64,000 nucleotides of DNA. Source: a virus. Shown piece after piece: positions 1 through 59,362 of the stretch. Each line of letters opens with the position of its first letter. Positions within the stretch are counted from its first letter, which is position 1. Location of the stretch: IMG/VR virus record IMGVR_UViG_3300045988_143356; one strand, given 5' to 3'. A program made the position numbers and the translations under genes. The notes under the pieces are model-generated. The model was given only the letters and a program-made list of their open reading frames with translations. It was not told the origin of the DNA and did no database searches.

Positions 1-66
1 TGACTTGAACGTAAAAGGTTAAAATTCGTGTTTTGGGCGCGTTTTTGCCTAAAACCAAGGAAATGT

Positions 67-74
67 ATATCTTT
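67..74 (+). promoter_or_regulatory. Putative Bacteroidota-type -7 promoter box (TATCTTTG = TAnnTTTG) for the left + strand early operon
   Basis: Exact TAnnTTTG match 32 nt upstream of ATG 106. TTTG at 44-47 lies 19 nt upstream as a possible -33 element. The same octamer recurs at 12412, 23564 and 30804. Confidence 0.5.
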
Positions 75-105
75 GGGGGCGAAACCCCGTTAAAACTAAA
101 AAAAA

Positions 106-615
106 ATGAAAATTTGGGACAGGTTCGTGAGGCTCTGGTGCCTCAATGTCATGAACCCGGTCGTGGTCAGCGGCGAGAAGGGCGGGTTCAGGTATGTTTT
201 CCGCCGCTACACGCTGGAGCTGCGGACGGTGAGCGGCAACTGGCGGATGAGGGTGACGGCGTGCGAGCATCCGTGGGCGTATCTGCGGGCGAGCGTCGAG
301 CAGGGGAGGGAGGACAACGTGTTCGGGTTCGCGCACGTGCTGTACTACCTGACGATGACGATGACGACCGACCAGCGGCTTGTGGACGAGGTGCAGAAGG
401 CGCTCGTGGACTACGAGACGCGGCTGGCGGAGGGGGAGAAGTCCGGGGAGGACCCGGAGGAAGAGAAGGCCGCCATGGAGGAGGTCAAGGGCGTGCAGGA
501 GTACGTCGAGATGGGCGCGAGGGAGCGGAGGAAGTACGAGCGGGATGTGAACCGGCGATTTCGGAAGGCGGCGGAGAAGGTGAGGTCGGCACGGAATTTG
601 AAGGGTAAGGATTAA
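106..615 (+). CDS. Hypothetical protein (169 aa), acidic/basic helical C-terminus
   Basis: ATG ORF directly after the promoter box. The overlapping ORF 33..608 translates to Gly/Arg-rich low-complexity sequence and was rejected. Confidence 0.55.
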   Translation: MKIWDRFVRLWCLNVMNPVVVSGEKGGFRYVFRRYTLELRTVSGNWRMRVTACEHPWAYLRASVEQGREDNVFGFAHVLYYLTMTMTTDQRLVDEVQKALVDYETRLAEGEKSGEDPEEEKAAMEEVKGVQEYVEMGARERRKYERDVNRRFRKAAEKVRSARNLKGKD

Positions 616-625
616 AACAAAAAAA

Positions 626-1261
626 ATGGAAGAAGGAATTTTTTACAAGCGCGGCTCGAAGAGCGATTACGCCGGGGTGGATATGTTGCCTAACGGGAAA
701 GACATTCCTCGTCTGGTAATAACTGACATCCGCTTTCACGAGGCTTTGATGATTAACGGTCGTCAAGATAAGGAGCGTTGGACGGCGCATTTTGCACCTA
801 ATCCGTTCTGTAACAAGCCTTTACTCTTAAATTCGACGAACAAATCAAGGATAGCGAAGGCTTTCTGGAATACGCCGGTGGAGGATGGAACAGCGTGTGC
901 CGGAAGGATAAATCTGTTGCATAACATCCCGGTCCGTCTTACGGCGGAGGTCGCTCGTGACGTGGCTAATGGAGGTGAGACTCTTGGTCTCCGCGTCAGC
1001 CGCTATCCGGCGGCCACCGAGGAGGAGATGCAGCAGTGGCTCGTCGAGAACGGCTACGCACAGGCGCCGGAGCCGGCGCCGGCGGCGAAAAAGGTTATCA
1101 CCGAGGATAAGGTGGGTGTCATAGTCGAATGGGCGTTGAAGAACGGCCTTGACATGGCGGCGATAAAGGAGCGCTACGACTTCGAGAGCCAGACGGTCGA
1201 GGATGCGGTGGCTGACGGCATAGCCGCGAAGCCGCAGGAGAGTGACGATTTACCTGAGTAG
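626..1261 (+). CDS. Putative ssDNA-binding/annealing protein (gp2.5/DUF669-like) with acidic C-terminal tail
   Basis: 211 aa. N-terminal ...LPNGKDIPRLVITDIRF... resembles DUF669/gp2.5-type OB proteins (from memory). Ala/Pro linker, then acidic tail ...QESDDLPE. Sits immediately upstream of a YqaJ-type exonuclease (3-nt gap). Confidence 0.4.
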   Translation: MEEGIFYKRGSKSDYAGVDMLPNGKDIPRLVITDIRFHEALMINGRQDKERWTAHFAPNPFCNKPLLLNSTNKSRIAKAFWNTPVEDGTACAGRINLLHNIPVRLTAEVARDVANGGETLGLRVSRYPAATEEEMQQWLVENGYAQAPEPAPAAKKVITEDKVGVIVEWALKNGLDMAAIKERYDFESQTVEDAVADGIAAKPQESDDLPE

Positions 1262-2025: not shown

Positions 2026-2242
2026 CTGTTACATCTGCATTGACGGTCGCCGGATGGGGCGTCTCCGGCAGGGCGAGGACGGCGAGATGAGGCTGTTCCG
2101 CATGCCGGGGTGCTCCATCGGCGTCTATTTCGAGATGCTGGGATGGTTGATGGATAACGAGGATAACATAGCATGGGATTCGGTCAAAGAAGAAGGCCCC
2201 CGGAGGCCGACAGGAAGCTGTACGCTTACAAGACGCCGCTGA
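2012..2242 (+). CDS. Possible small Cys-containing protein (GTG start), or N-terminal part of the next gene
   Basis: Frame of ORF 1970..2242. GTG at 2012 overlaps the exonuclease stop by 14 nt. Peptide starts LLDNCYICIDGRRMG... It overlaps ORF 2173..2925 by 70 nt unless that gene starts at GTG 2266. Confidence 0.3.
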   Translation: MLLDNCYICIDGRRMGRLRQGEDGEMRLFRMPGCSIGVYFEMLGWLMDNEDNIAWDSVKEEGPRRPTGSCTLTRRR

Positions 2243-2925
2243 ACAGACGGAGCGCGCCTTACATAGTGCGTTTCTTCGACTACTGCTACAAGCGCGGTGT
2301 CTGGGACGCTTGCGACCACGGTGACGACTACGAGGTGCGGAGCTTCGTGGAGGAGCATTCCGTGTCGTGGAGGTTCGCCGTGCTCGGCGAGCCTGGCGAC
2401 CTTGACTGGGAGACCTGGCGCTTCCTTATGTACCGCTGGGCGAAGGAGCGCGGGATGAACGAGCTCGCGGAGTACTACATCTACGAGATAGTCCGTCAGA
2501 ACCATCTGTGGTATTTCCTTCCGTACTGCATGCGCTTCTATCTGAAAGGCATGGCAGACTGGCTGAAAAGGCCGGAGCCGGGCGGGATAGACCTGTTCAT
2601 GTCCACGCCGAGGGAGCGGTGGGTCACTGACGGGAGGCTGTCCGTCCGCATGGTCAACACGGACTACGTTTCGGACATGCACATGTTCGCCTTCGAGTAC
2701 CGCAGGGTGCCGGAGGACGACCGCGCGTTCAGCATCATAGCGTTCGAGCAGTACGCCCGCGCCATACACGACCTGACAAGGAAGTGGCGGGGCAGGCAGC
2801 AGTTCACATATCAAGTCCGGAAGGACCTGGAGGGGATCAAAAAGGAATCGTATGGAAGCGAAGAGTCAAGTATTAAACATGGACTGCCTGGAGTTCCTGA
2901 GGGAGCAGCCGGACAAGAGCTTTGA
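2173..2925 (+). CDS. Hypothetical protein (250 aa from ATG 2173; 219 aa if GTG 2266 is used)
   Basis: Long ORF with Trp/Tyr-rich, non-repetitive composition. No motif recognised. Antisense ORF 2125..2814 is treated as a shadow. Confidence 0.6.
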   Translation: MGFGQRRRPPEADRKLYAYKTPLNRRSAPYIVRFFDYCYKRGVWDACDHGDDYEVRSFVEEHSVSWRFAVLGEPGDLDWETWRFLMYRWAKERGMNELAEYYIYEIVRQNHLWYFLPYCMRFYLKGMADWLKRPEPGGIDLFMSTPRERWVTDGRLSVRMVNTDYVSDMHMFAFEYRRVPEDDRAFSIIAFEQYARAIHDLTRKWRGRQQFTYQVRKDLEGIKKESYGSEESSIKHGLPGVPEGAAGQEL

Positions 2926-3554
2926 CCTGGCGGTGGTCGATCCGCCTTACGGGGGAGCCAATGACCTCAGTATCAATGGGGGGGGGGCGTTTCGGCGAAA
3001 GGTTCGACCGCTACAAGAACGGGCGGGACATGGGCGACGAAGTACGGAAAAAAATCATAGGCTGGGACGTGGCACCCGGCGAGGAATATTTCAAGGAGCT
3101 TTTCCGTGTCTCGAAGAATCAGATAATCTGGGGTGGGAACTATTTCTCTCTCCCGCCGACAAGGTGCTTCCTTGTCTGGCGCAAGCTGACCATATCCGAG
3201 AGTTTCACGATGGCGATGGCGGAGTACGCGTGGACAAGCTTCAACGGCAACGCCAAGGTGTTCGAGTGCGCTCCGCAGGGCGCGTCGAAGGATCAGCGGT
3301 TCCACCCGACGCAGAAGCCCGTCGCGCTTTACACGTGGGTCTTCAAGCAGTTCGCCAAGCCGGGGGACAGGGTTCTGGACACGCATCTTGGGAGCGGATC
3401 GTCAAGGATAGCGGCGTACGGCCTGGACCTGGACTTCACCGGGATAGAGATAGACAAGGATTATTTCGACAAGTCGGTGGAGCGTTTCGAGCGCGTCTGT
3501 CACGGCGTGCAGGACATCGGCGGTCACAAGGTGGAGCAGGGCAGCCTGTTTTAG
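2852..3554 (+). CDS. DNA methyltransferase (beta-class N6A/N4C, DPPY type); reading frame broken at a G10 tract
   Basis: Frame of 2852 carries MDCLEFL...FDLAVVDPPYGG (motif IV). Frame of 2922 carries RVSKNQIIWGGNYF, FHPTQKPVAL and VLDTHLGSGSS (motif I). The two frames meet exactly at the G run 2978-2987. One fewer G gives one continuous ORF of about 233 aa. Confidence 0.8.
2978..2987 (+). repeat. Homopolymeric G10 tract inside the methyltransferase gene
   Basis: Counted directly: ...atcaat GGGGGGGGGG cgtttcgg... Confidence 0.95.
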
Positions 3555-18034: not shown

Positions 18035-18333
18035 GCTCTGCCTTCGAGTCCTCGACGCACAACGAGCGAATCAAGAACGTTTACGGCAACTTCGGTTTCT
18101 GGTCGTGGCTGCGCTATTGGTACCTTGACTCGGCGAACCTCGTGACGATGTGGCTGATAGACAAGGGATATTACGATTACGACTACGAGAAGGAGGGTAA
18201 GCTGATAACGGTGTCGGGAACTCGCAAGTCAAAGACTGATGTTAACAATATTCTTCGTAACTTTGGACTGCCTGTTGAAGGCGAGGATTTACAATCATAC
18301 ATAATCAAGGAGGAACAAAAAAATGGCTGTTGA
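17507..18333 (+). CDS. Tail assembly chaperone -1 frameshift product (GT-like)
   Basis: The -1 frame is open from before 17881 through 18333 (...KKGRQVGSAFESSTHNERIKNVYGNFGFWSW...). It ends 11 nt inside the tape-measure start. Confidence 0.6.
18016..18022 (+). promoter_or_regulatory. Programmed -1 ribosomal frameshift slippery site A_AAA_AAG
   Basis: Zero-frame codons are ata-aaa-aag (18014-18022). The heptamer is identical in form to the dnaX-type X_XXY_YYZ site. Confidence 0.65.
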
Positions 18334-21300
18334 GATACCGGTAGTCATAGACATAGACAAGGCGTTTGACGACGCTATCAAGAAGCTGCCGTCGGCGATG
18401 CGCCCGTTGAAGAACACGATAGAGCAGCTTTCGCAGGAGCTGAACATAGCGCGTCAGATTATGGCGGAGGCTCCGATAGACAGCAAGGACTGGCAGGACG
18501 CGGCGAATATGGTAAAGGGGTTGTCGCAGTCTTTGGAAGTCGCATCCGACAAGATGCGGAGATTGGTAGCCAACGATGGCAGCATCAAGCAGATGACCGC
18601 CACCTTGGCCTCGCTGAATCGTAGGTGGGAAGAGATGGGATATATGCAGAAGTTCCAGAACGCTTCGCAGTTGTCAAGCGAGGCGGAGGCTTTGTATGCT
18701 GAATATAAAAGAATAACAAAGTCTTTGCAGCAGAACAAGACCCTTACACAGCTTTGGGCGGAAGAGCAGGCAAAAGCGGCGAAAGCCGCAGAGCGGCAGG
18801 CCGCTGCCACCAAAGCTGCGCAGGACAAGGCATTCATGATGTCCTCCCCGGCGAACACGCTTGCGGGTTTGCGCAAACAGGAAACTCTACTGTCAGCCGC
18901 GATGGGGCAGGTTACTATTGGATCCGCAGCGTTCAGGGATTATGAGAACCGCCTGACAGCAGTGCGCAACAAGATAAAGTCAGCCACAAAGGAGCAGAAA
19001 ACATATAACACTGCGTTGTCCGAAAGCCATTCGCGCCTTGGCACGCTGATAAAAAGTACCGTGGCGTACTTCTCTTTGCGCCAGGTTACAAATTTCCTGC
19101 GTAATATCCGTGCTGTCACCGCCGAGTTCGAGATGCAGCGTGTTGCCTTGGGAGGTATCATCCAGGATAGCGACAAGGCAAGCGAACTCTTCAAGCAGAT
19201 AAAGGCCGCTGCAATCAAGTCGCCTTTTGAAATCAAGGATTTGGTCTCATACACGAAGCAGTTGTCCGCGTACCGGATAGAGACAGACCAGCTTTTTGAG
19301 ACCACGCAGCGTCTGGCCGATGTGTCTTCCGGTCTTGGCGTGGATATGGGGCGTATCATACTCGCCTACGGCCAGGTCCGCGCTGCTTCGGTGCTTCGTG
19401 GAACCGAGTTGAGACAATTTACCGAGGCCGGGATTCCATTGGTGGAGCTTTTGGCAGAAAAATTCTCGCAGCTTTCCGGGCGAATGGTCAACACCGCCGA
19501 GGTGTTCGACCTTATATCGAAGCGTGCTGTGTCGTTCAAGATGATCAAGGAGATATTTGAGGATATGACCAACGCTGGCGGTATGTTCTATAAGATGCAG
19601 GAGAAACAGTCCGAGACGTTGCAGGGTAAGTGGATGAACTTGAAGGATTCCGTGTCCATTATGTATGATGAGATAGGAAACACGAAAGATATTCATACGG
19701 CTATGGAATGGATGCTATCTTTCGCGACCGCGTTGATGAATAACTGGCGCACCGTGGGGAAGGTGCTTGGCGGCGTGATAGCGTCTATGACGGCTTATAA
19801 AATAGCGGTGACAAATACCACGATAGCCATTAATGCGCAGACAGCCGCCAATGGCATAGCTCAAAAGATGGAATGGAGTCGCCAAATAGGTATGAGCAAG
19901 ACCATATCACTCATATTCGGCGAGACGGCTGCCAGGAAGATTCAGATAGCCTTGATGCGTACCTACGTCGCAGTCAAAGCCAAGGAGGTAGCGGCCACGA
20001 ACCTTTTCACAAAGGCATTCTATAAGATGACCGCCGCCTTGCTGAAAAATCCTTACGCGCTTGCGATAGCGGGAATCACGGCTTTGGGCTACGGGTTGTA
20101 TCAGTTGATGACAAATGCCAACAAGGCAAAAATAAGTGTTGATGATTTTGAGAAATCCTTGGAATCTTTCAAGCAGTCCAAGTCGCACGCCAAGGATATT
20201 GATGATTTATGCGCGGCTTATGACGAGCTTAATAAAAAGACGGACAAGACCGCCGAGGAGCAGAAAAAGCTCGAGCGCATAACTAAAGATTTAGCAAAGG
20301 CATATCCGTCCGCTGTCGCTGGTGTAGATGCGCAGACGGGGGCATTGAAGATTAACACCAAGGCTATCAAAAGCAATAACGAAGCTGTAAAAGAGGCTAT
20401 CAAATTGGCGTTGACGCAAGATAAGACAAGTGCGGAGGCAGAACTTGCCAAAAGGGAAGCGGAACGCGACAAGATAGCAAGAGAGTTGGAACGTGGTAAA
20501 GTAACACGTTTTGGGCCTTACAATACGCAATATGAAGGTGATTTAACCGAGGAAGAGCGAGCTGCCAGAGGCCGTCGTATCACCGAGTTGGAAGCCGAAA
20601 TTAAGCAATATTCAAACTTGGTTGAAGATGCGGAAAAACAATTGGAGGGGTATTCCGAAGAAGTGGGCGTTTGGCTTGACTTCTTTGATGACAAATGGCG
20701 CTTATCCCTCACCGGCTATTCATATACCTTGCAGAGCACCGGTCAGCGGGTCCGTGCCTTCACCAAAGAACAGATAGAGAATTTCACCTCGCTGAAAGAC
20801 GCACTGGACGCCGCAGCGAAGGGCTACAAGGAGCAGAAGGAGGCGGTCGAGTTCTATACGCACGCATACAACGCTGCCACGGGCGGCAAGAAAGACCAGA
20901 TGAAGGCGGCTCTCGCTGACGCGCAGGCGCAGCTTGCCATGTACACGAAGATACTGACCGACAATGATGCCATGTATCTGACAGCGCAGAAAGGCAAGGG
21001 CGGAGCATCAAGTGACCCGTTTATCATCCAGATAGAGAATCGCATCAAGTTCATGAAAGACTTCCAGAAGGGTTACGAGTCTCTTTTGAAGTATATGTCT
21101 TCCTCGGCTGCCTTGCAGAAAGAGGGCAGCATCATGCAGGGACGTGGTGTCGCCTTGGGCATAGACCCGTCTGAGCAGAAGCGTGCCGCCACTGACCTTT
21201 CTGGATGGCTCGAAGATTTGAAAAAGACGGTGTTCGCAGAGGCGCAAAAGAAGGGTGCTAAAGGTGATATTCTTAATTTTCTCGGTTTGAAAATCAACTC

Positions 21301-23557
21301 CGGTGTGCTCCGTGAGTATCAGTCCTTGATTCAGTCTATCTTTGACACAAAGACCGACATAGACACGTCGCAGATGTCGAAGAACTTTGACAAGGCGATA
21401 AAGCAGCTTTCCACCGAGTTAAAGAACACCGAGGCGGCCCGTAACTTCTACAAGGACATCCTCGGCCAGACTGGTGATGAGCAGCTGGCGACTACGCTGA
21501 CCGTATCGGTTTACGGCGACATCGGCAAGGATTTCAAGGACCGGATAAAGGCGCAGCTGGACAAGGCATTCGCGAGCCTTTCAAAGGCTGACCAGACACC
21601 GGAGATGAAGGCGGCGATAGACACGCAGGACTTCGGTTATTTGCTTTCCAATCTGGACAAGTTCTCGCAGGAGTGGCAGAAGGTGTTGCAGGAGGCGGCC
21701 AGCAGCTCTATCCAATACAACGCCAAGTGGCTGAAAGATTTGGTCTCTTCCTACGAAAAACACAAGACCTTCGAGGAGCGCATCACCGAGACAAAGCAGC
21801 GCGAGGCACAGAAACGTGTTGAGATACAGAAGTGGGAGGCGGAACAGATTGCGGCGATAGACAAGGACACGACCAAGACCGCCGAGGAGAAAACGGCTGC
21901 GAAAGCCAAGGTGAAGGCGACATCTACACAGATGCAGGCCGCGTCAAGCAGTAAGGAAACTAAAGAGGTGTCTAATATTGAGATGGAGGCGTTGAAAGCG
22001 ACGTATGAATGGACCAAGGCGTTCGAGGATATGGACAACGTTTCAACCACAACGTTGAAAAACCTTATCGCTCTGCTGACCTCGTATATTGACAAGTGGA
22101 AGGATTCAGGTGACGCACCGGAATCACTAAAGGCAGCAGTCCAGGCGTTAGAGCAGGCACAGGCGCAGATTACGGAAAGGAATCCTTACCAAGGCGCGAT
22201 AAAAGGCATAAAAGATTATATCAAGGCCAAGCAGACGGCAAACAGATTGGAGAAAGAGGGAAAGAAAGGAACGCAGGAGTATAAGGAAGCGCAAGATGCA
22301 ATGCGCAAGGCTATGAAATCTACCGAGAAATCGGTAAATGATGTCGGCAACACTTTCAATACATTTTCTTCAATAGTAAGTTCGGTTTCTGATATTCTGA
22401 ACCTTGACGAAATGTCCGACGGTGAGGCGGTACTGCAAGGTATCGCCGCCGGTCTTACTATGGTCGGTACTGCCCTCGTGTTCATCAATGCGATGTTTAC
22501 CCTTTTGGAAACCAATCCTATTGTCCTCGCCATTTCCGCCATAATCGCCAGTGTAGCCGCCTTGGGTATGATAATGAGCAACCTGTCCACGGCAGGAGCC
22601 AACCGCGAGATAGAGAAACAGCAACAGACCGTAGATGCGCTTGAAAAGTCTTACAAGCGATTGGAAAAGGCTATGGAGGATTCCTTCGGTTCTGATTACA
22701 TCTATAACTATCAAGAGCAGATGAAGAACCTCCAGGCGCAGGCTGACGCTTATCAGAAGATGGCCGATGCCGAGCGAAGCAAAGGAAGAAAGGCGGATGA
22801 CGACAAGATAAAGGAGTACGAGGAGAGTATGGATGACATACTTGAGAAAATGGACGACATGAAGCACCAGCTCAGCGAGTACTTCTCCGGCACGGATCTG
22901 ACCTCGGCGGCGGAGGATTTTGCTAAATCTTGGATTGACGCTTACCGTGAGTTTTCCAGCACCACCTCGGCGATGAAGGAGAAGTTCAGGGAGATGATTG
23001 ACAATATGGTGGTCAATTCGCTTGCCGGGCAGGTGATGCAGAATATATTAAAACCCGTCTTTGATGCCATTGACGAATATTCAAAGGACGGCGCTTTGAC
23101 CGAGAAAGAGATTGCGAACATAGCTGCGATGTCTGTTGCCAAAACCGAGGAGATAAACACTGCTATGACCGCCTTGATGGAACGACTCACCGCCGCTGGT
23201 GTGAACATCCGTGCCACCGGCTCCAGTCTTTCCGGAATATCGAAGGACATAGCGGGTGCGTCCGAGGAGTCCATCAACGCTCTTGCTTCCGGCATCAACA
23301 CGCAGAACTTCTACATGTCGTATATGCCGAACATAGACCGCAACGTCGCCGCTATCCTTGTGGCGATACAAGGTGGGACTACTCCGAACACGGTTGCGGC
23401 TCCGCAGACCACCTCTGTCCAGTTTGGCGACGAGACGTTCCGCGGGCAGATGAGCAGGATAGACGAGAATGTCGCCGGAATCTACCAGATGATGCGCAGC
23501 GTGATTACTCCGAAGTCTGCAAACGTTAACACGCATTGTGTTGGCACAAAGGGCTAA
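18323..23557 (+). CDS. Tape measure protein
   Basis: 1744 aa with coiled-coil composition. TMP core FEMQRVALGGIIQD...LVSYTKQLSAYRIE...GQVRAASVLRGTELRQFTEAGIPL, plus hydrophobic segments around 22430-22590. Confidence 0.9.
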   Translation: MAVEIPVVIDIDKAFDDAIKKLPSAMRPLKNTIEQLSQELNIARQIMAEAPIDSKDWQDAANMVKGLSQSLEVASDKMRRLVANDGSIKQMTATLASLNRRWEEMGYMQKFQNASQLSSEAEALYAEYKRITKSLQQNKTLTQLWAEEQAKAAKAAERQAAATKAAQDKAFMMSSPANTLAGLRKQETLLSAAMGQVTIGSAAFRDYENRLTAVRNKIKSATKEQKTYNTALSESHSRLGTLIKSTVAYFSLRQVTNFLRNIRAVTAEFEMQRVALGGIIQDSDKASELFKQIKAAAIKSPFEIKDLVSYTKQLSAYRIETDQLFETTQRLADVSSGLGVDMGRIILAYGQVRAASVLRGTELRQFTEAGIPLVELLAEKFSQLSGRMVNTAEVFDLISKRAVSFKMIKEIFEDMTNAGGMFYKMQEKQSETLQGKWMNLKDSVSIMYDEIGNTKDIHTAMEWMLSFATALMNNWRTVGKVLGGVIASMTAYKIAVTNTTIAINAQTAANGIAQKMEWSRQIGMSKTISLIFGETAARKIQIALMRTYVAVKAKEVAATNLFTKAFYKMTAALLKNPYALAIAGITALGYGLYQLMTNANKAKISVDDFEKSLESFKQSKSHAKDIDDLCAAYDELNKKTDKTAEEQKKLERITKDLAKAYPSAVAGVDAQTGALKINTKAIKSNNEAVKEAIKLALTQDKTSAEAELAKREAERDKIARELERGKVTRFGPYNTQYEGDLTEEERAARGRRITELEAEIKQYSNLVEDAEKQLEGYSEEVGVWLDFFDDKWRLSLTGYSYTLQSTGQRVRAFTKEQIENFTSLKDALDAAAKGYKEQKEAVEFYTHAYNAATGGKKDQMKAALADAQAQLAMYTKILTDNDAMYLTAQKGKGGASSDPFIIQIENRIKFMKDFQKGYESLLKYMSSSAALQKEGSIMQGRGVALGIDPSEQKRAATDLSGWLEDLKKTVFAEAQKKGAKGDILNFLGLKINSGVLREYQSLIQSIFDTKTDIDTSQMSKNFDKAIKQLSTELKNTEAARNFYKDILGQTGDEQLATTLTVSVYGDIGKDFKDRIKAQLDKAFASLSKADQTPEMKAAIDTQDFGYLLSNLDKFSQEWQKVLQEAASSSIQYNAKWLKDLVSSYEKHKTFEERITETKQREAQKRVEIQKWEAEQIAAIDKDTTKTAEEKTAAKAKVKATSTQMQAASSSKETKEVSNIEMEALKATYEWTKAFEDMDNVSTTTLKNLIALLTSYIDKWKDSGDAPESLKAAVQALEQAQAQITERNPYQGAIKGIKDYIKAKQTANRLEKEGKKGTQEYKEAQDAMRKAMKSTEKSVNDVGNTFNTFSSIVSSVSDILNLDEMSDGEAVLQGIAAGLTMVGTALVFINAMFTLLETNPIVLAISAIIASVAALGMIMSNLSTAGANREIEKQQQTVDALEKSYKRLEKAMEDSFGSDYIYNYQEQMKNLQAQADAYQKMADAERSKGRKADDDKIKEYEESMDDILEKMDDMKHQLSEYFSGTDLTSAAEDFAKSWIDAYREFSSTTSAMKEKFREMIDNMVVNSLAGQVMQNILKPVFDAIDEYSKDGALTEKEIANIAAMSVAKTEEINTAMTALMERLTAAGVNIRATGSSLSGISKDIAGASEESINALASGINTQNFYMSYMPNIDRNVAAILVAIQGGTTPNTVAAPQTTSVQFGDETFRGQMSRIDENVAGIYQMMRSVITPKSANVNTHCVGTKG

Positions 23558-53138: not shown

Positions 53139-53533
53139 TTTAATTCTTCTTCAAGAACTAATCCACCTTTCAATACATGTTGTTGCATCAATGGAGATAG
53201 TTTTATCATCTGCTCATAAGTAGGTCTTACCCAGTTGTGCAACTTAGCGCCAGAAATAAACTCCAATTTAAGCCATTCCGTATAAGAGATGGTCGTTTTA
53301 TGTAACATTATCGCTGCTTTACAGAAACGGCACCCAATCGTAAATGGGGTTACACCTTTTGCTGTATATTGTGTATAAAAACTCTTGCCGCATTTCTCGC
53401 AGATATAAACATCCACGCCAGTGCCTCTGCCGTCAAATATACGGGCAGTTTCAATGTCTTTAAGCATCTGGTCGTACTTTTTCTTTAATTCTTCCATAGA
53501 ATTATATTTTTTAATAGCTATTCCTCCCACCAT
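53135..53533 (-). CDS. Zn-ribbon protein
   Basis: 132 aa; the alternative start ATG 53497 is possible. CEKCGKSF...CRFCKAA. Confidence 0.5.
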   Translation of the reverse strand: MVGGIAIKKYNSMEELKKKYDQMLKDIETARIFDGRGTGVDVYICEKCGKSFYTQYTAKGVTPFTIGCRFCKAAIMLHKTTISYTEWLKLEFISGAKLHNWVRPTYEQMIKLSPLMQQHVLKGGLVLEEELK

Positions 53534-53970
53534 TTATAGTACTTCGGAGCATCATCGTTTGTGCCTACAAGATGAGCGGTTTTGTCGTTGTAAGGGATTT
53601 GTTGTTTCCACATTCCAGTATGGGAAAATACCGCAGCTACCCACCAAGAAGCATCATAATCTCTTACCAATACCTTATCAAATGGCTTCAACGTCTCAGG
53701 GTCAAAACGCTCCTTCTTTGGCTTGAATGTACTCCAGTCACGGTTGTCCTTTGAGGGAAATAACAAGCATTCATCGCCTAATTCGCTGATTGCCCCATTA
53801 GGGAAGAATGTCTTATTGCAAATTATATTGGCAGTCCCTACATAATTGACAGTCACAAATTTATCGACAACCGAATATAAACTACAAACACCATAAAGTG
53901 GTGTGTACAGCTTCGTCCCTTTCGGGCTGTCTTTCAGAATCTCGCAGAGATTCAGTTCTTTATTTTCCAT
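53518..53970 (-). CDS. Hypothetical protein
   Basis: 150 aa ORF. Confidence 0.55.
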   Translation of the reverse strand: MENKELNLCEILKDSPKGTKLYTPLYGVCSLYSVVDKFVTVNYVGTANIICNKTFFPNGAISELGDECLLFPSKDNRDWSTFKPKKERFDPETLKPFDKVLVRDYDASWWVAAVFSHTGMWKQQIPYNDKTAHLVGTNDDAPKYYKWWEE

Positions 53971-54380: not shown

Positions 54381-54980
54381 TCAAAACGGAAGCTCGGCGC
54401 GAACACCTTGCGGAGCCACTGAACCAGCCGTCCTCTTCTTGAAAGCGTCGGCGGTGACATCCAAAAGCACGATGGGAGCCGCCATGTACTTGAGGTACAG
54501 GCCGCAGCCGTACACGTAACCGTAGAAGCCGTTCGAGACCCACCCGCGATCCCGGTTGCCCCGGGAGCAACTCCAGACGCCGGCGCTAAAATACTCCATA
54601 AGATCCGCCCCGTCTATCTTTCTTGCTAACTTGTCAATCTCGCCATCCTGCTCCGTTATCTCCATCGCCGCCAGCAGGGTCGGCAGTCCGAATCTGCCGA
54701 ACTTTTCGGAGGTGAATTTTGTGGCAAACCTCGCCGCCGGGCTTCCAGCTTTAAGAAGCGCGGCGGTGGCCGCCTGGTTATCCCTCAACCTCAGCGCGCG
54801 CATCACGGAAATTCCCGCGTCGAACCACCTATCCCTATCCTTTGGATCCAGCAACTCCTCGTTGCTGTACCTCGGGTAAATGAGAGCCCTCTGCCAGTTC
54901 AGGAGGTCGATCTCGATACCCTCGATACATTCAAGCCTGTTCTGGCCGTCGCATCCGTCCTTGTAGATAATCCTTGCCAT
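54381..54980 (-). CDS. Hypothetical protein
   Basis: ORF 54381..55061 trimmed to ATG 54980 (MARIIYKDG...). High GC. Confidence 0.55.
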   Translation of the reverse strand: MARIIYKDGCDGQNRLECIEGIEIDLLNWQRALIYPRYSNEELLDPKDRDRWFDAGISVMRALRLRDNQAATAALLKAGSPAARFATKFTSEKFGRFGLPTLLAAMEITEQDGEIDKLARKIDGADLMEYFSAGVWSCSRGNRDRGWVSNGFYGYVYGCGLYLKYMAAPIVLLDVTADAFKKRTAGSVAPQGVRAELPF

Positions 54981-55017
54981 AATCAAAAAATCTTTCTGTA
55001 ATTCATGACTCCGCGCC

Positions 55018-55746
55018 TCATAGCTCCAGCCCGTATTCCATGGCCACCTGCCTGATGACATCGCCGCCGTAGTCGCCCGCGGTCTCCGTAAGGAACGTCC
55101 TCAGGGTGATGCTGTCAGTAGGATTGTACCCGTGTTCCTCGCACCACTGCCTCCTTCCGAACTCGCAGGAGCCTGTCAATATGTGATGCCAGTCGAACAG
55201 GTCGCCATACTCCTCATCCAATGCCGGGTGGGTCTTCGCGAACTCCGCTATCCTCTCGTCCAGCGGCCTGTTCTTCCTCCACTTGGCCTCGACCGCCTCG
55301 ACCGCCTCGTGGAGCGTGTTACTGTGGGCGAAGAAGTTCCCTCGCTTGGCTATCCAGCAGTCCCTCAACGTCAAATCCCTGCACAGAACCGCGCCCTTGG
55401 CGACATTGCCACGCAAGTCATAGATAAGTGTCAACACTCCGTCGATGTCATAGACCTTGCGGCCGTTGAACTCCTTGATGCCGTCACCGTCACCGGAACC
55501 GGAACCGTAACCGTAACCGTCACCGTCACCGTCACCGTCACCGGAACCGGAACCGGAACCGGAACCGGAACCGGAACCGTAACCGTCACCGTCACCGGAA
55601 CCGGAACCGGAACCGTCACCGTCACCGTCACCGTCACCGTCACCGGAACCGGAACCGGAACCGTAACCGTCACCGTCACCGGAACCGGAACCGGAACCGG
55701 AACTTATGGCAAGGAACCGCTCGATATCCTTTTCTATCGCTTCCAT
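55018..55746 (-). CDS. Protein with N-terminal (S/D/Y-G)x37 low-complexity array and a conserved-looking C-terminal domain
   Basis: 242 aa. MEAIEKDIERFLAIS + 37 X-Gly dipeptides + IKEFNGRKVYDIDGVLTLIYDLRGN... Confidence 0.65.
   Translation of the reverse strand: MEAIEKDIERFLAISSGSGSGSGDGDGYGSGSGSGDGDGDGDGDGSGSGSGDGDGYGSGSGSGSGSGSGDGDGDGDGYGYGSGSGDGDGIKEFNGRKVYDIDGVLTLIYDLRGNVAKGAVLCRDLTLRDCWIAKRGNFFAHSNTLHEAVEAVEAKWRKNRPLDERIAEFAKTHPALDEEYGDLFDWHHILTGSCEFGRRQWCEEHGYNPTDSITLRTFLTETAGDYGGDVIRQVAMEYGLEL
55481..55702 (-). repeat. Hexanucleotide tandem array, 37 units of CCG(GA/TC/TA)A on the + strand
   Basis: Counted: 37 hexamers over 222 nt. On the coding strand the units are TCC-GGT (SG), GAC-GGT (DG) or TAC-GGT (YG). 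Confidence 0.95.
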
Positions 55747-56039
55747 TCCTTCTTCGCCTCGATGTTAGCTATTGCCTTGTAAGAGCAAGGTATGATCTGG
55801 ACAACGTTGGCGACTACCAGCGACGGCACGGCCACCGTGATCTTGCTGTTGTCGTTGCAACCTTCCTGCGAAAGCTGCTCCACGGCCGCGGCCCCGTCCC
55901 AGTACCACACCTTGCGGGCGTTGGCAAGACGGACGTTCAGCCCGTTGGCGTCGCCTGAAACCTCTTCGACCTCGCCGAAGAAGACCCCGGCGCCATAGCA
56001 TCTCACGATGCACTTTTTTCCGCTGTAATTTTCCATCAT
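55734..56039 (-). CDS. Hypothetical protein
   Basis: 101 aa ORF. Overlaps the previous gene's start by 13 nt. Confidence 0.55.
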   Translation of the reverse strand: MMENYSGKKCIVRCYGAGVFFGEVEEVSGDANGLNVRLANARKVWYWDGAAAVEQLSQEGCNDNSKITVAVPSLVVANVVQIIPCSYKAIANIEAKKEWKR

Positions 56040-56075
56040 CTTTAATCATTAAAAGTTAAACAATCTGTATAAACT

Positions 56076-56179
56076 TGGCCCGGAGCGCGGAGTCGAACCG
56101 CCTTTTGTCAAAATCATCAATTTGTGTTTTTAGCATCGCTACGTATTCCCGCGTCCCCGTGGACGCTTTCTCTCCTGGC
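56076..56179 (-). ncRNA. tRNA-like module 2 (about 104 nt, non-canonical)
   Basis: GCCAGGAG pairs with CTCCGGGC (8 bp, one A.G mismatch), followed by CA. A 6-bp/4-nt-loop hairpin GCGTCC-ACGG-GGACGC, then a 48-nt A/U-rich centre. T-arm at 56086-56102. Confidence 0.4.
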
Positions 56180-56253
56180 TTTTCGCGCGTCACCGCGCTA
56201 CTTGGGTTGGAAGGTAACTCCTGGGCTACCTTGTCCTCGCTTGCGAGGCTTCG

Positions 56254-56366
56254 CTCCACGGTGAGGAATCGAACCTCACTGTCGTCCTACGCTTTGAATG
56301 AAGTGTGTCTTTTCGGGGCGTCTTCATTCATTGTGCCGGAAACGCCATATTCCGGCCTTCGTGGAG
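56254..56366 (-). ncRNA. tRNA-like module 1 (about 113 nt, non-canonical)
   Basis: Perfect 7-bp closing stem CTCCACG/CGTGGAG. A 6-7 bp hairpin GCCGGA(A)...(T)TCCGGC with GG in its loop. A 9-bp stem TGAATGAAG/CTTCATTCA with an 18-nt loop where the anticodon arm would be. T-arm at 56261-56279. Confidence 0.45.
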
Positions 56367-56379
56367 TTTTGCCGTCTCC

Positions 56380-56634
56380 CTAAACGGTATATTCCCAGTT
56401 CGTCATTGCTGGCGGATCATCGTCCTCTATCGAATCCGACATAAAGACAACCATGTCCACTGTGACACCTACAAAATCCATGCCTTTGTAGTCATCGAAG
56501 CGGTAGTCCAGGACAAGTTTCCTTGCCTCCGCCGCGTCATTTGCCCAACAGTCGCACTCTATCGGCCTGTTGTAAACCTCGCCATTCCAGTCCTCGTGCT
56601 GGACAGTGGCGCAAACTTTGAATAACTTAATCAT
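56380..56634 (-). CDS. Hypothetical protein
   Basis: 84 aa ORF between the recombinase and the RNA locus. Confidence 0.55.
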   Translation of the reverse strand: MIKLFKVCATVQHEDWNGEVYNRPIECDCWANDAAEARKLVLDYRFDDYKGMDFVGVTVDMVVFMSDSIEDDDPPAMTNWEYTV

Positions 56635-58820: not shown

Positions 58821-59075
58821 TTATCCGATTTTTGCGCAACCCATATATGTCTCGCTTTTCTTGTAATACTCTAAACAATCCCTGTCATCATCCGTGTCGT
58901 TCCAATCGTCCACAAACACGGTAATATCCACGATATCGAACTTTCCGTCACCTTTCTTGATGCTTGCAAGATGCCTGTCAAGACTTGCAAAGTCGGAGAA
59001 CCTTTTCTCCGAAAGGTTCTCCATGTCGCTGCGGTCACATATTCCCGCATCGCCGAATACCAGCACTACATCCAT
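58821..59075 (-). CDS. Hypothetical protein
   Basis: ORF 58821..59126 trimmed to ATG 59075 (MDVVLVFGDAG...). Confidence 0.45.
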   Translation of the reverse strand: MDVVLVFGDAGICDRSDMENLSEKRFSDFASLDRHLASIKKGDGKFDIVDITVFVDDWNDTDDDRDCLEYYKKSETYMGCAKIG

Positions 59076-59362
59076 ACCAGACTCCCCACGCTGAATGACC
59101 TCCAAGACTGTTTTTCGCAGTCCCAAAATTTCATAATCCCTACCGTGTCAGGCCTTGCCTCGCCTTTCGGCTGCCATATCGTTCCGTCCGCCAGCCTCAT
59201 GAGCGAACGTTTCAGAGTCCCCACGGCCTCCCTTATCGTGCCGTCTTTCTTCACGAAGCGGAACTTAACCGCCTCCTCCATCATCCGTGACTCCAGCAAC
59301 ATCACGTCTTCGGCCTGCTTCTCGGTGAGTCCGAACGTAACCAGTTCTTCTTTCTTTTTCAT
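59066..59362 (-). CDS. Hypothetical protein, DUF2693-like
   Basis: 98 aa. FRFVKKDGTIREAVGTL...WDCEKQSWRSF resembles DUF2693 (from memory). Confidence 0.45.
   Translation of the reverse strand: MKKKEELVTFGLTEKQAEDVMLLESRMMEEAVKFRFVKKDGTIREAVGTLKRSLMRLADGTIWQPKGEARPDTVGIMKFWDCEKQSWRSFSVGSLVWM

What the first reader, a model, noticed from the sequence alone, without database searches (positions are those of the whole stretch)
56040..56379. Ornate 340-nt non-coding gap with two tRNA-type T-arm/acceptor modules that do not fold as canonical tRNA or tmRNA
Genes on this strand are otherwise packed with gaps of 0-40 nt, yet 340 nt here lack a convincing ORF.

On the - strand I can read two perfect T-arms: GTGAGG-UUCGAUU-CCUCAC and GCGG-UUCGACU-CCGC. 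Each is followed by a strand that pairs with a segment about 100 nt upstream. The pairs are CTCCACG/CGTGGAG (7 of 7) and GCCAGGAG/CTCCGGGC (7 of 8). Each upstream strand is preceded by an A-rich leader and followed by a 6-bp hairpin.

Where an anticodon arm should be, module 1 has a 9-bp stem with an 18-nt loop. Module 2 has a 48-nt A/U-rich stretch.

Three hairpins lie between the modules. Two have 4-nt loops of GNRA form (GCAA if the closing G-C pair of the first hairpin is left open, and GUGA). The third has a 10-nt loop, GCCCAGGAGU, that nearly repeats the 5' acceptor strand of module 2, which suggests alternative pairing.

The locus lies two genes downstream of a serine recombinase. Possible roles, all speculative:
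- tRNA mimic or decoy against tRNA-targeting host defences
- RNase P/Z punctuation of the polycistronic early transcript
- an attP carrying tRNA 3' fragments
- an unclassified structured RNA
Basis: partly seen in the sequence, partly recalled or inferred. Interest (0 to 1): 0.75.

Follow-up and report, generated by a model that had tools for sequence, protein, structure and literature searches.

The report
Anticodon-less tRNA mimics in gut phage
A 340-base gene-free stretch in an uncultured human-gut Bacteroidales phage encodes two RNAs shaped like the top half of a tRNA but lacking an anticodon; their stems are kept by compensatory mutations in dozens of related phages, they match no catalogued RNA family, and their function is unknown.

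Summary

ARAGORN finds no tRNA or tmRNA. Rfam 15 gives no match even at E<=10. The 67-aa ORF is frameshifted or stopped in relatives.

About 30 distinct homologous arrays were recovered from human-gut phage contigs. Both modules are 98% paired. Compensatory double changes occur in 14 of 29 pairs (module 1) and 13 of 23 pairs (module 2). Slid controls give 32-59% pairing.

The array is modular. Module 1's anticodon-position arm is long, short or absent. A third mini module (8/5) and extra hairpins come and go. A GNRA hairpin plus module 2 is the constant core. Only the acceptor, D-type and T arms are under selection, so these are tRNA top-half mimics, not decoders.

The attP, coding, intron-tRNA and alternative-pairing readings are not supported.

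Most likely mechanism (inferred, not shown): host RNase P and RNase Z excise the modules from the early polycistronic transcript, leaving stable tRNA-shaped RNAs. A decoy role for these RNAs is possible.

The usual downstream gene, DUF6948, models as an Sm-like fold, but it is not always present. I class the locus as a new variant of a known kind.

The parts
56253..56366 (-). tRNA-like module 1. It is a four-arm cloverleaf with a 7-bp acceptor, a 7-bp D-type arm, a 9-bp/18-nt anticodon-position arm, a 15-nt variable stretch and a 6-bp T stem with loop UUCGAUU. The next base (discriminator position) is C.
   Evidence: Minimum-free-energy fold. Coordinates. Model-based alignment of 28 distinct relatives is 98.0% paired, with 14 of 29 pairs changed on both sides.
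56360..56366 (-). Module 1 acceptor, 5' strand, CUCCACG. It is preceded by the A-rich leader GGCAAAA.
   Evidence: Pairs with 56254-56260. Relatives have CUUCCCG/CGGGGAG or CUCCCCG/CGGGGAG. C-G to A-U double changes are counted; sequences are.
56335..56356 (-). Module 1 D-type arm, GCCGGAA-UAUGGCGU-UUCCGGC.
   Evidence: Six of 7 pairs show double-sided changes among relatives. Variants include UGUCAGA/UCUGACA and CGCCGG/CCGGCG.
56295..56330 (-). Module 1 arm at the anticodon position: 9-bp stem, 18-nt loop, no 7-nt anticodon loop.
   Evidence: The stem covaries in 4 of 9 pairs. Other relatives replace the arm with a 5-bp/5-nt hairpin or lack it altogether.
56261..56279 (-). Module 1 T arm, GUGAGG-UUCGAUU-CCUCAC.
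   Evidence: Variant stems GCGGGG/CCCCGC, GGACGG/CCGUCC and GUGUGG/CCACAC. Three of 6 pairs show double changes.
56254..56260 (-). Module 1 acceptor, 3' strand, CGUGGAG.
   Evidence: In about half of the relatives the downstream bases read ...GAG-CCA-C.
56235..56248 (-). Hairpin H1, CCUCG-CAAG-CGAGG.
   Evidence: Present in the fold. It is poorly conserved, takes a different register in relatives, or is truncated.
56211..56232 (-). Hairpin H2, AAGGUA-GCCCAGGAGU-UACCUU.
   Evidence: The loop sequence is conserved. The stem is kept with wobble or shifted variants. H2 is absent in several relatives.
56185..56198 (-). Hairpin H3, GCGCG-GUGA-CGCGC. This GNRA-capped hairpin sits just 5' of module 2 and belongs to the constant core.
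   Evidence: The two loop-proximal pairs covary (CG, GU, GC; GC, UA, CG, AU). The loop stays GNRA (GUGA, GCGA, GGGA) with one UUGA exception.
56077..56179 (-). tRNA-like module 2. It has an 8-bp acceptor, a 6-bp hairpin with ACGG loop, 49 nt of single strand, and a 4-bp T stem flanked by a conserved G/G juxtaposition. The next base is C.
   Evidence: Alignment A2, 24 sequences: 97.6% paired, 10 of 23 pairs with double changes. Alignment A8, 27 sequences including divergent relatives: 98.4% paired, 13 of 23.
56172..56179 (-). Module 2 acceptor, 5' strand, GCCAGGAG. The A at its fourth position is a window-specific mismatch.
   Evidence: Relatives have GCCCGGAG, GCCCGGGG, AUGCCGGG, AUGCUGAG, GCGGCGGG or GUGUCCGG, each with a matching 3' strand. 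Seven of 8 pairs show double changes.
56151..56166 (-). Module 2 D-position hairpin, GCGUCC-ACGG-GGACGC.
   Evidence: Three pairs covary (GCGUCC/GGACGC against GCCGUC/GACGGC). The ACGG loop is invariant in the window's lineage.
56102..56150 (-). Module 2 single-stranded A/U-rich stretch. It starts with the conserved GGGAAUACGU and contains GAUUUUGA.
   Evidence: No consensus pairing is predicted. Its length ranges from about 27 to 55 nt, with indels that are not multiples of three.
56087..56101 (-). Module 2 T arm, GCGG-UUCGACU-CCGC.
   Evidence: Invariant in the close lineage. It becomes GGGG/CCCC in L132, L133 and L135.
56078..56085 (-). Module 2 acceptor, 3' strand, CUCCGGGC.
55734..56039 (-). 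Downstream gene, DUF6948, 101 aa, predicted Sm-like fold. This is context and a possible partner, not an obligatory part.
   Evidence: PF22253, E 5.4e-23. AlphaFold2 model pLDDT 92.7. The top 50 PDB matches are all Sm/LSm proteins or Sm/LSm-containing complexes. It directly follows the array in most relatives but is absent near the array in L029, L045, L051, L056 and L066.
56380..56634 (-). Upstream 84-aa gene, whose stop codon lies 13 nt before module 1. Context only.
   Evidence: No Pfam or PHROG match.

Best explanation
The gap encodes a non-coding array of anticodon-less tRNA mimics. It is transcribed on the - strand as part of the phage's polycistronic block of small genes.

Each module folds into the top half of a tRNA: an acceptor helix stacked on a T arm with a canonical T loop, plus a D-type hairpin. 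The anticodon arm is replaced by a dispensable arm or by an unstructured linker.

This top half is what host tRNA-maturation enzymes recognise. The most likely mechanism is therefore as follows. RNase P cuts at the 5' end of each acceptor, after the A-rich leaders. RNase Z or 3' trimming cuts after the base that follows the helix. The transcript is thereby punctuated. The products are stable tRNA-shaped RNAs of about 105-115 nt and an inter-module hairpin RNA of about 70 nt.

The released mimics cannot decode. If they have a function of their own, it would be to occupy a factor that binds the tRNA elbow or acceptor.

Shown: the region is non-coding, it has tRNA-like architecture, and selection acts on the acceptor, D and T stems but not on the anticodon position.

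Inferred: processing by RNase P/Z, stability of the products, and any activity in trans.
For: Not coding: the ORF frame is broken in relatives.

Structure:
- The unconstrained fold gives two acceptor/D/T modules.
- Module 1 is 98.0% paired, with 14 of 29 pairs changed on both sides. Slid controls give 37-59%.
- Module 2 is 98.4% paired, with 13 of 23 pairs changed on both sides. Slid controls give 32-53%.

Strand: many G-U pairs (for example UG in 14 sequences at module 1 pair 3, GU in 9 sequences in H3) would be C-A mismatches on the other strand. The structure therefore belongs to the gene-sense strand.

Only the top half is constrained:
- The anticodon-position arm is 9 bp/18 nt, 5 bp/5 nt, or absent.
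- Module 2 has a variable linker of about 27 to 55 nt.
- A third mini module has only an acceptor, a T arm and a small hairpin.

Layout resembles a tRNA operon:
- A-rich single-stranded leaders precede each acceptor.
- The same base (C) follows every acceptor helix.
- CCA sits at the expected place in many module 1 copies.

The array is autonomous: upstream and downstream genes differ among relatives.

No promoter-like or terminator-like site on the - strand lies at or near the array in the window (the one - strand promoter-like match is about 1.5 kb upstream, at chance level), which fits co-transcription with the neighbouring genes.

That RNase P, RNase Z and the CCA-adding enzyme accept acceptor/T minihelices and tRNA-like RNAs is established knowledge, not tested here.
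Against: - There are no expression or end-mapping data, so processing is pure inference.
- One module would be enough for punctuation, yet sequence-specific conservation goes beyond tRNA shape. Examples are GGGAAUACGU, the ACGG loop, GCGUAGGACGGCAG and the H2 loop. This suggests additional partners or tertiary contacts.
- All modules have 13 rather than 12 nucleotides on the 3' strand between the T loop and the helix end (6+7, 5+8, 4+1+8). This is atypical for standard tRNA substrates.
- The D-loop GG is not invariant (UGAGCAGC in L003 and L005).
- No Rfam tRNA hit appears even at E<=10.
Confidence: 0.5

Rival explanations
1. Decoy or anti-defence RNA. The mimics exist mainly to bind and titrate a host factor that attacks or modifies the tRNA acceptor end or elbow. 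Candidates are nucleotidyltransferase or pyrophosphokinase toxins, or nucleases of abortive-infection systems. Processing would only be the way the decoys are released.
For: Selection preserves exactly the anticodon-independent part of tRNA. There are two or three copies per array. The array sits in the block of small early-type genes of unknown function. Similar anticodon-less mini tRNA-like hairpins occur in unrelated viral contigs, one directly after a tRNA cluster in a jumbo phage.
Against: No defence or anti-defence gene is linked to the array. No target is known. Anticodon nucleases, the best-known tRNA-directed defences, would not see these RNAs. There is no experimental evidence.
Confidence: 0.2
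2. RNA partner of the phage Sm-like protein. The DUF6948 product forms an Sm/Hfq-type ring that binds the single-stranded A/U-rich tract of module 2, and the two act together as a ribonucleoprotein.
For: The DUF6948 model (pLDDT 92.7) matches only Sm/LSm proteins and complexes in the top 50 PDB hits. DUF6948 is the first gene after the array in most relatives. In the window the tract contains GAUUUUGA, flanked by helices; from my own knowledge, this matches the eukaryotic Sm-site consensus. Another Bacteroidota-type phage has a different catalogued ncRNA (DUF2693-FD, 58.8 bits) directly upstream of its DUF6948 gene.
Against: Arrays in L029, L045, L051, L056 and L066 have no DUF6948 within the 9-13 kb fetched. 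The U tract is missing in L001-type, L132 and L133 arrays, which do have the gene. DUF6948 genes in proteobacterial phages have no adjacent long non-coding region. The Foldseek E-values are modest (about 4e-3). No sequence-level match to solved Sm proteins was found.
Confidence: 0.12
3. Cis-acting leader or riboswitch-like regulator of the downstream gene.
For: The array ends 37 nt before the start codon of the next gene and is usually upstream of DUF6948.
Against: The downstream gene differs among relatives. Three other gene families follow the array, including an inserted PAPS-reductase-like gene. No expression platform (terminator or start-site sequestering helix) is conserved. The modular gain and loss of whole tRNA-like units is unlike riboswitch evolution.
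Confidence: 0.07
4. Decaying tRNA genes, or attP carrying tRNA fragments, with no RNA function of their own.
For: Canonical T loops are present, and there is CCA after some acceptors. A recombinase gene is nearby.
Against: Compensatory changes maintain four helices per module across roughly 30 distinct sequences, which pseudogenes would not show. Both acceptor strands are present and co-vary, whereas an attP core must stay identical to the host gene. The recombinase is a small resolvase-type protein. The motif was found in only one 3.8-kb MAG contig among species-representative genomes, so there is no sign of integrated copies.
Confidence: 0.04
5. A real decoding tRNA (type II or intron-containing), a tmRNA, or a 67-aa protein gene that the detectors missed.
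For: With the intron option and thresholds lowered to 90%, ARAGORN forces a 'tRNA-Ile(GAU) with 60-nt intron at position 27' over H3 plus module 2.
Against: Default ARAGORN finds nothing in the window or in 18 related loci. The relaxed calls give different anticodons and impossible intron positions in different relatives. Rfam tRNA and tmRNA models give no hit at E<=10. No 7-nt anticodon loop is conserved. There is no G3-U70 pair and no conserved tag frame. The ORF frame is broken in relatives.
Confidence: 0.02

Closest known systems
Canonical tRNA genes and phage tRNA clusters
   Same: Acceptor helix stacked on a T arm with a GGUUCGAnUCC T loop. D-type arm. A-rich spacers between units. One conserved base after the helix, and CCA in some copies. 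Tandem arrangement, as in a tRNA operon.
   Different: No 7-nt anticodon loop; the anticodon arm is variable, tiny or absent. D stems are 6-7 bp. There are 13 rather than 12 stacked positions on the 3' strand. Not detected by ARAGORN or by Rfam RF00005.
tmRNA tRNA-like domain
   Same: Acceptor plus T arm, with a large insertion where the anticodon arm would be. Module 3 in relatives looks like a bare tRNA-like domain with a GGAUU/GGGUU D-loop analogue.
   Different: No G3-U70 pair, no pseudoknots, no conserved tag reading frame, and only about 55-115 nt long. No ARAGORN or Rfam tmRNA hit.
tRNA-like elements that serve as processing signals: MHV68 tRNA-miRNA-encoded RNAs, MALAT1 mascRNA, Arabidopsis GUT15 tRNA-like RNA (PMC6152437), and RNase P-processed phage RNAs such as P1 C4 and P4 CI
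   Same: A non-decoding tRNA-shaped unit embedded in a longer transcript, next to hairpins. The proposed release by RNase P/Z follows the same logic. MHV68 likewise has a tRNA-like unit followed by stem-loops.
   Different: Those are eukaryotic or viral pol III/pol II systems, or proteobacterial antisense RNAs with known targets. Here the host is Bacteroidales, there are two or three mimics per array, no antisense target was found in the phage, and there is no similarity to the C4 family in Rfam.
Bacterial Y RNA-like YrlA (PMC4201824)
   Same: A non-coding RNA that mimics the tRNA D/T elbow and is also found in phages.
   Different: In YrlA the 5'/3' ends form the Ro-binding stem and the acceptor is closed by a loop. 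Here the ends are at the acceptor. No YrlA model hit was found, and no Ro/TROVE domain was found among the 40 window proteins scanned against Pfam.
tRNAs with unusual acceptor/T geometry: tRNA-Sec (8/5), tRNA-His (G-1:C73), allo-tRNAs 8/4 and 9/3 (PMC5389517)
   Same: 8-bp acceptors, 4- or 5-bp T stems, long D stems with small loops, and C after the helix.
   Different: Those RNAs keep a functional anticodon arm and are called by tRNA software. These have none.
Rfam phage-associated Bacteroidota RNAs (DUF2693 and DUF2693-FD motifs)
   Same: Structured non-coding RNA in the same kind of place, upstream of a DUF6948 gene in a human-gut phage contig (L129).
   Different: No sequence or structure similarity. 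Those motifs have no T loop, and the window gives no hit to them.

Membership tests
Canonical tRNA | Detected by tRNA gene finders or covariance models | tested here: not met
   ARAGORN finds 0 genes in the window and in L001-L018. Rfam RF00005 gives no hit at E<=10 on 56030-56400.
Canonical tRNA | Anticodon arm with a 5-bp stem and 7-nt loop, conserved | tested here: not met
   At that position there is a 9 bp/18 nt arm, a 5 bp/5 nt arm, no arm, or a single-stranded linker of about 27-55 nt.
Canonical tRNA | Acceptor/T stack of 7+5 base pairs | tested here: not met
   The geometry is 7+6 in module 1, 8 + G/G + 4 in module 2, and 8+5 in module 3 of relatives.
Canonical tRNA | T arm with a GTTCRANYC-type loop and an acceptor helix formed by the 5' and 3' ends | tested here: met
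Intron-containing or type II tRNA | A consistent tRNA call with the intron in the anticodon loop, or a long variable arm, across relatives | tested here: not met
   ARAGORN -i finds nothing in the window at the default threshold. At 70-90% thresholds the anticodons and intron positions are inconsistent among relatives.
tmRNA | tRNA-like domain with G3-U70, pseudoknots, a tag reading frame, and detection by ARAGORN or Rfam | tested here: not met
   No tmRNA call and no Rfam hit. Position 3:70 is a C-G or G-C pair. No frame is conserved.
tRNA-like structure / tRNA mimic (functional class, not a homology family) | Non-decoding RNA that keeps the acceptor-T coaxial stack and an elbow-forming D/T pair under selection | tested here: met
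   Covariation in the acceptor, D-type and T stems of both modules. The T loops are invariant.
tRNA-like structure / tRNA mimic (functional class, not a homology family) | Recognised by tRNA enzymes (RNase P, RNase Z, CCA-adding enzyme, synthetase) | not testable with these tools
   This needs in vitro cleavage or charging assays, or end mapping.
attP with tRNA 3' fragment | Only the 3' part of a tRNA gene is present | tested here: not met
   Both acceptor strands and a D-type arm are present, and they co-vary.
attP with tRNA 3' fragment | Sequence identical to a host tRNA gene, with integrated copies in host genomes | tested here: inconclusive
   The array pattern was found in only one 3.8-kb Bacteroidales MAG contig among 185,579 species genomes.
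YrlA / Y RNA | Match to RF02553, a Ro-binding terminal stem and a closed acceptor | tested here: not met
   No Rfam hit. The topology differs.
C4/CI-type RNase P-processed antisense RNA | Rfam C4 family match and complementary target sites in the same phage | tested here: not met
   No Rfam hit. No complementarity above chance was found in the 64 kb window.
Sm/LSm/Hfq-like proteins (for the neighbouring DUF6948 gene) | Sm fold: strongly bent beta-barrel | tested here: met
   AlphaFold2 pLDDT 92.7. The Foldseek top 50 are all Sm/LSm proteins or complexes; target-normalised TM-score is about 0.6-0.7 for the archaeal Sm-protein matches, E about 4e-3.
Sm/LSm/Hfq-like proteins (for the neighbouring DUF6948 gene) | Ring assembly and RNA binding | not tested
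   No multimer model or binding assay was run. There is no sequence-level hit to solved Sm proteins.

The most novel reading that the evidence does not exclude
A lineage of human-gut Bacteroidales phages carries a dedicated, modular cassette of tRNA top-half mimics. After excision by host tRNA-processing enzymes, these act in trans. They could be decoys for a host factor or immune effector that recognises the tRNA acceptor or elbow. Alternatively they could be the RNA subunit of a particle built with the phage's own Sm-like protein, in a host phylum I understand to lack Hfq (my own knowledge, not checked here). Either case would be a new class of phage non-coding RNA effector.
Probability: 0.25. 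Interest if true: 0.85.

Novelty: new variant of a known kind. Interest (0 to 1): 0.66.

Why it matters
tRNAs sit at the centre of the phage-host conflict. Phages carry tRNAs to replace those cut by host nucleases, and hosts aim toxins at tRNA ends. This is a conserved phage RNA that keeps only the anticodon-independent half of a tRNA and is present in two or three copies per genome. That points to a use of tRNA shape that has nothing to do with decoding.

If the mimics are excised by RNase P/Z, this is a natural bacterial-virus counterpart of the tRNA-punctuated transcripts known from mitochondria, herpesviruses and engineered guide-RNA arrays.

If they act as decoys, or with the adjacent Sm-like protein, they open a directly testable question in gut Bacteroidales. 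RNA chaperones and phage counter-defences are, to my knowledge, poorly known in that group.

The family is also a ready-made candidate for Rfam. It has about 30 distinct sequences, and roughly half of the base pairs are supported by compensatory changes.

Tried and rejected
1. Canonical tRNA or tmRNA. Rejected by default ARAGORN. Relaxed and intron modes gave only inconsistent forced calls.

2. Any Rfam family. Gathering threshold on the whole window and on 13 loci gave nothing. E<=10 on 1.5 kb gave only spurious microRNA hits in the neighbouring GS/GD-repeat gene. E<=10 on the 371-nt region gave nothing.

3. Known phages. No nucleotide match in 50,697 phage records. The nearest isolates by terminase are Parabacteroides phages at 37% identity.

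4. Coding. The 67-aa ORF frame is shifted or stopped in relatives.

5. Antisense targets. blastn-short of the RNA against the window gave nothing above chance. The complement of the H2 loop also gave nothing.

6. H2 loop competing with the acceptor. Rejected: no co-variation.

7. Own promoter or terminator. The sigma-70 and terminator scan found nothing at or near the array on the - strand (one chance-level promoter-like match about 1.5 kb upstream). Bacteroides-type TAnnTTTG occurs at chance frequency. The GGTTATTAGT motif conserved upstream in relatives is absent from the window.

8. Wider family. One viral scan was lost to a miscounted pattern. The corrected patterns found only the same lineage. 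A loosened T-arm pattern gave mostly chance hits, plus about ten unrelated mini tRNA-like hairpins.

9. RNA-processing enzymes in the phage. Pfam on 40 window proteins found a helicase, portal, dUTPase, resolvase, SLT, WYL_2 and DUF6948, but no RNA ligase, nucleotidyltransferase, synthetase or Ro.

10. DUF6948 as an obligatory partner. Rejected, because some arrays lack it nearby and proteobacterial homologues have no adjacent ncRNA.
Full report
**What is there**

On the - strand, the 84-aa ORF 56380-56634 ends 13 nt before a 340-nt stretch. The 101-aa ORF 55734-56039 starts right after that stretch.

An unconstrained minimum-free-energy fold of 56040-56385 gives -104.7 kcal/mol, z = -2.4, and no shuffle out of 100 folds as well.
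- Module 1 (56253-56366) is a four-arm cloverleaf. It has a 7-bp acceptor (CUCCACG/CGUGGAG), a 7-bp D-type arm, a 9-bp stem with an 18-nt loop where the anticodon arm belongs, 15 unpaired bases, and a 6-bp T stem closing the loop UUCGAUU.
- Three hairpins follow: H1, H2 (10-nt loop GCCCAGGAGU) and H3 (GUGA loop).
- Module 2 (56077-56179) has an 8-position acceptor (GCCAGGAG/CUCCGGGC, one A-G mismatch), a 6-bp hairpin with loop ACGG, 49 A/U-rich unpaired bases, and a T arm GCGG-UUCGACU-CCGC.

The T-loop motif GGTTCRANTCC occurs nowhere else in the 64 kb window.

**It is not a known RNA gene**
- ARAGORN finds no tRNA or tmRNA in the window or in 18 related loci.
- Rfam 15 has no match at gathering thresholds in the window or relatives. 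It has no match at all at E<=10 when only the 371-nt region is searched.
- With the intron option and thresholds lowered to 70-90%, ARAGORN produces forced calls. Their anticodons and "intron" positions (27-36) differ between relatives. I treat these as artefacts.
- No phage record in INPHARED resembles the region at the nucleotide level.

**Relatives**

The downstream protein brought in 18 IMG/VR loci. Further loci came from several other searches:
- DNA patterns from module 2 recovered more contigs from IMG/VR, 25 human-gut metagenome contigs and one Bacteroidales MAG contig.
- More distant homologues of the downstream protein (62-71% identity) led to L132, L133, L135 and L136.

In total there are about 30 distinct module 2 sequences and 27 distinct module 1 sequences.

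The host is very probably a member of the Bacteroidales:
- Genes lack Shine-Dalgarno sequences and have A-rich leaders.
- The only genome hit is a Bacteroidales MAG.
- The nearest isolates by terminase are Parabacteroides phages at 37% identity.

**Not coding**

The reading frame of the 67-aa ORF is shifted by 1-, 2-, 4- and 5-nt indels or interrupted by stops in most relatives.

**Covariation**
- Module 2, MAFFT alignment of 24 sequences: 97.6% of cells paired, against 33-50% when partners are slid. Ten of 23 pairs changed on both sides.
- Module 2 with the divergent relatives added (27 sequences, model-based alignment): 98.4% paired and 13 of 23 pairs with double changes. Seven of the eight acceptor pairs covary (GCCCGGAG, GCCCGGGG, AUGCCGGG, AUGCUGAG, GCGGCGGG, GUGUCCGG, each with its complement). 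The T stem also changes, from GCGG/CCGC to GGGG/CCCC.
- Module 1 (28 sequences, model-based alignment): 98.0% paired, against 37-59% slid. Fourteen of 29 pairs have double changes, including six of seven D-stem pairs.

The model-based alignments lean towards the structure. However, the MAFFT-only result for module 2 and the per-sequence folds of module 1 tell the same story.

Frequent G-U pairs would be C-A mismatches on the opposite strand. This places the structure on the gene-sense strand.

**What is and is not conserved**

The array is strikingly modular.
- The arm at module 1's anticodon position is 9 bp/18 nt in the window. It is a 5-bp/5-nt hairpin in many relatives and absent in others.
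- Some relatives lack module 1 altogether.
- Some insert two further hairpins and a third module of about 57 nt. That module consists only of an 8-bp acceptor, a small hairpin and a 5-bp T arm, and its acceptor and T stems also covary.
- H1 is poorly conserved and H2 is optional.
- The constant core is H3, always a short GNRA-capped hairpin with a covarying stem, followed by module 2.
- Inside module 2 the linker varies from about 27 to 55 nt. Only the motif GGGAAUACGU (GGAAUAUUC in distant relatives) recurs.

Selection therefore acts on the acceptor, D-type and T helices and on the T loop. That is the top half of a tRNA, not anything that could read a codon.

One geometric trait is shared by all three kinds of module. 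The 3' strand has 13 positions between the T loop and the end of the acceptor helix (6+7, 5+8, and 4 + a conserved G opposite G + 8) instead of the canonical 12. The next base is always C.

In about half of the module 1 copies the downstream bases read CCA, if the arm is counted as 5+7.

**Context**

Upstream and downstream genes differ among relatives.
- Most arrays precede the DUF6948 gene.
- Others precede homologues of window genes 54381-55061 or 53518-53970, or an inserted PAPS-reductase-like gene.
- Several arrays have no DUF6948 within 9-13 kb.

Many relatives carry an extra conserved non-coding stretch of about 250 nt 5' of module 1, which the window lacks.

In the window no promoter-like or terminator-like site on the - strand lies at or near the array; the only - strand promoter-like match is about 1.5 kb upstream and at chance level. 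The array is therefore presumably co-transcribed with the small-gene block.

Pfam scans of 40 window proteins found no RNA ligase, nucleotidyltransferase, synthetase or Ro protein.

**Interpretation**

The evidence establishes a new, conserved family of non-coding RNAs that mimic the anticodon-independent half of tRNA. What they do is not shown.

The most economical mechanism rests on the well-established fact that RNase P, RNase Z and the CCA-adding enzyme recognise the acceptor/T stack and elbow. Under this mechanism the modules are excised from the polycistronic transcript. That cuts the transcript at defined points and leaves stable tRNA-shaped RNAs plus a hairpin RNA between them. The A-rich leaders, the uniform base after each helix and the occasional CCA fit this reading.

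Several features suggest the released RNAs also engage a specific partner:
- The copy number of two or three modules per array.
- The sequence-specific conserved patches.
- The unusual 13-position geometry.

A decoy for a factor that targets tRNA acceptor ends or elbows is the most interesting possibility, but nothing here tests it.

The attP idea is disfavoured. Both acceptor strands are present and co-vary, and no integrated copies were seen.

The proposed alternative pairing of the H2 loop is not supported. The loop stays GCCCAGGAG where the acceptor has become AUGCUGAG/CUCAGCAU (L014), and where the loop differs (L017) it is not complementary to that acceptor.

**A lead found on the way**

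The DUF6948 protein (55734-56039) gives a confident AlphaFold2 model (pLDDT 92.7). Its 50 best PDB matches are all Sm/LSm proteins or Sm/LSm-containing complexes, although there is no sequence-level match.

In the window and most close relatives, module 2's single strand contains GAUUUUGA; from my own knowledge, this matches the classical Sm-site consensus.

In a different gut phage contig (L129) a DUF6948 homologue is preceded by a different, catalogued RNA, Rfam DUF2693-FD.

Against a fixed partnership:
- Some arrays lack the gene nearby.
- The U tract is not conserved in divergent arrays.
- Proteobacterial phage homologues have no neighbouring non-coding stretch.

I keep this as a rival reading with low probability.

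**Comparison with known systems and novelty**

Functionally the closest analogues are tRNA-like units used as processing handles. These include MHV68 tRNA-like units followed by stem-loops, mascRNA, GUT15, and RNase P-processed phage RNAs such as C4 and CI. The tmRNA tRNA-like domain is also comparable.

The array fails the defining tests for tRNA, tmRNA, YrlA and C4 membership.

Two full-text literature searches for tRNA-like or tRNA-mimic elements in phages returned no description of such arrays. An earlier search likewise found none.

I classify it as a new variant of a known kind (tRNA mimicry). It is real and well supported as a structure, with its mechanism still open.

Noticed in passing
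window 55734-56039 (-): The DUF6948 protein just downstream of the array models with high confidence (pLDDT 92.7) as an Sm/LSm-like barrel. All 50 top PDB Foldseek matches are Sm/LSm proteins or Sm/LSm-containing complexes. I understand Bacteroidota lack Hfq (my own knowledge, not checked here), so a phage Sm-like protein next to non-coding RNAs is worth testing for RNA binding.
   Followed up: partly
L129 (MT835900.1) locus 1586-1748: In another human-faecal phage contig, the roughly 410-nt gene-free stretch upstream of a DUF6948 homologue (43% identity) holds Rfam DUF2693-FD RNA (58.8 bits, above threshold). It also has a weak DUF2693 RNA match. This is a different ncRNA in the equivalent position.
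   Followed up: partly
L023 ~29-116 (-), L037 ~815-910 (-); also L032, L039, L080, L082, L100, L108, L116, L122, L124: Unrelated viral contigs carry anticodon-less tRNA-like hairpins of 45-123 nt, each with a perfect 7-bp acceptor and a T arm. ARAGORN and Rfam do not call them. One sits directly after tRNA-Asp at the end of a tRNA cluster of a 436-kb jumbo phage, next to a HisRS-like gene. Anticodon-less tRNA mimics may be widespread in phages.
   Followed up: partly
L001-L017, about 250 nt 5' of module 1 (e.g. L003 2482-2700); absent from the window: Most relatives have an additional conserved non-coding stretch upstream of the array. It has mutually exclusive GC-rich hairpins (ACCCGC...GCGGGU against GCCGCG...CGCGGC) and a conserved GGTTATTAGT motif. 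It could be a terminator/promoter junction or a further RNA element.
   Followed up: no
window 55018-55746 (-): The 242-aa protein begins with about 90 residues of (GS)n/(GD)n/GY repeats. The repetitive DNA that encodes them produced the only (spurious) Rfam microRNA hits in the neighbourhood.
   Followed up: no
window 59066-59362 (-): A second small protein of the same gene block matches WYL_2 (PF10902, E 3.3e-17), which Pfam describes as an Sm-like SH3 beta-barrel fold.
   Followed up: no
window 20139-20151 and 20198-20208 (+): The 13-mer TTGATGATTTTGA from module 2's single strand recurs exactly on the + strand inside the 1744-aa ORF 18323-23557. An 11-mer variant lies 59 nt further on. These are same-sense copies, not complementary, and the E-value (0.27) suggests chance.
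   Followed up: no
L009 ~2125-3000: In one relative a PAPS-reductase-like gene is inserted between the array and the DUF6948 gene. The insert contains a run of 14 G that may be an assembly artefact.
   Followed up: no
L032 2987-3044 (-): A type II hammerhead ribozyme match (38.3 bits, gathering score 37) in an unrelated viral contig fetched by the T-arm pattern.
   Followed up: no
L132 1781-1805, L133 2452-2475, L135 990-1010: In the divergent relatives a GC-rich hairpin follows module 2 directly (for example GCAAGC-GGAAG-GCUUGC) and precedes an A/U-rich stretch. It may be a terminator or 3'-protective hairpin. The window's array lacks it.
   Followed up: no
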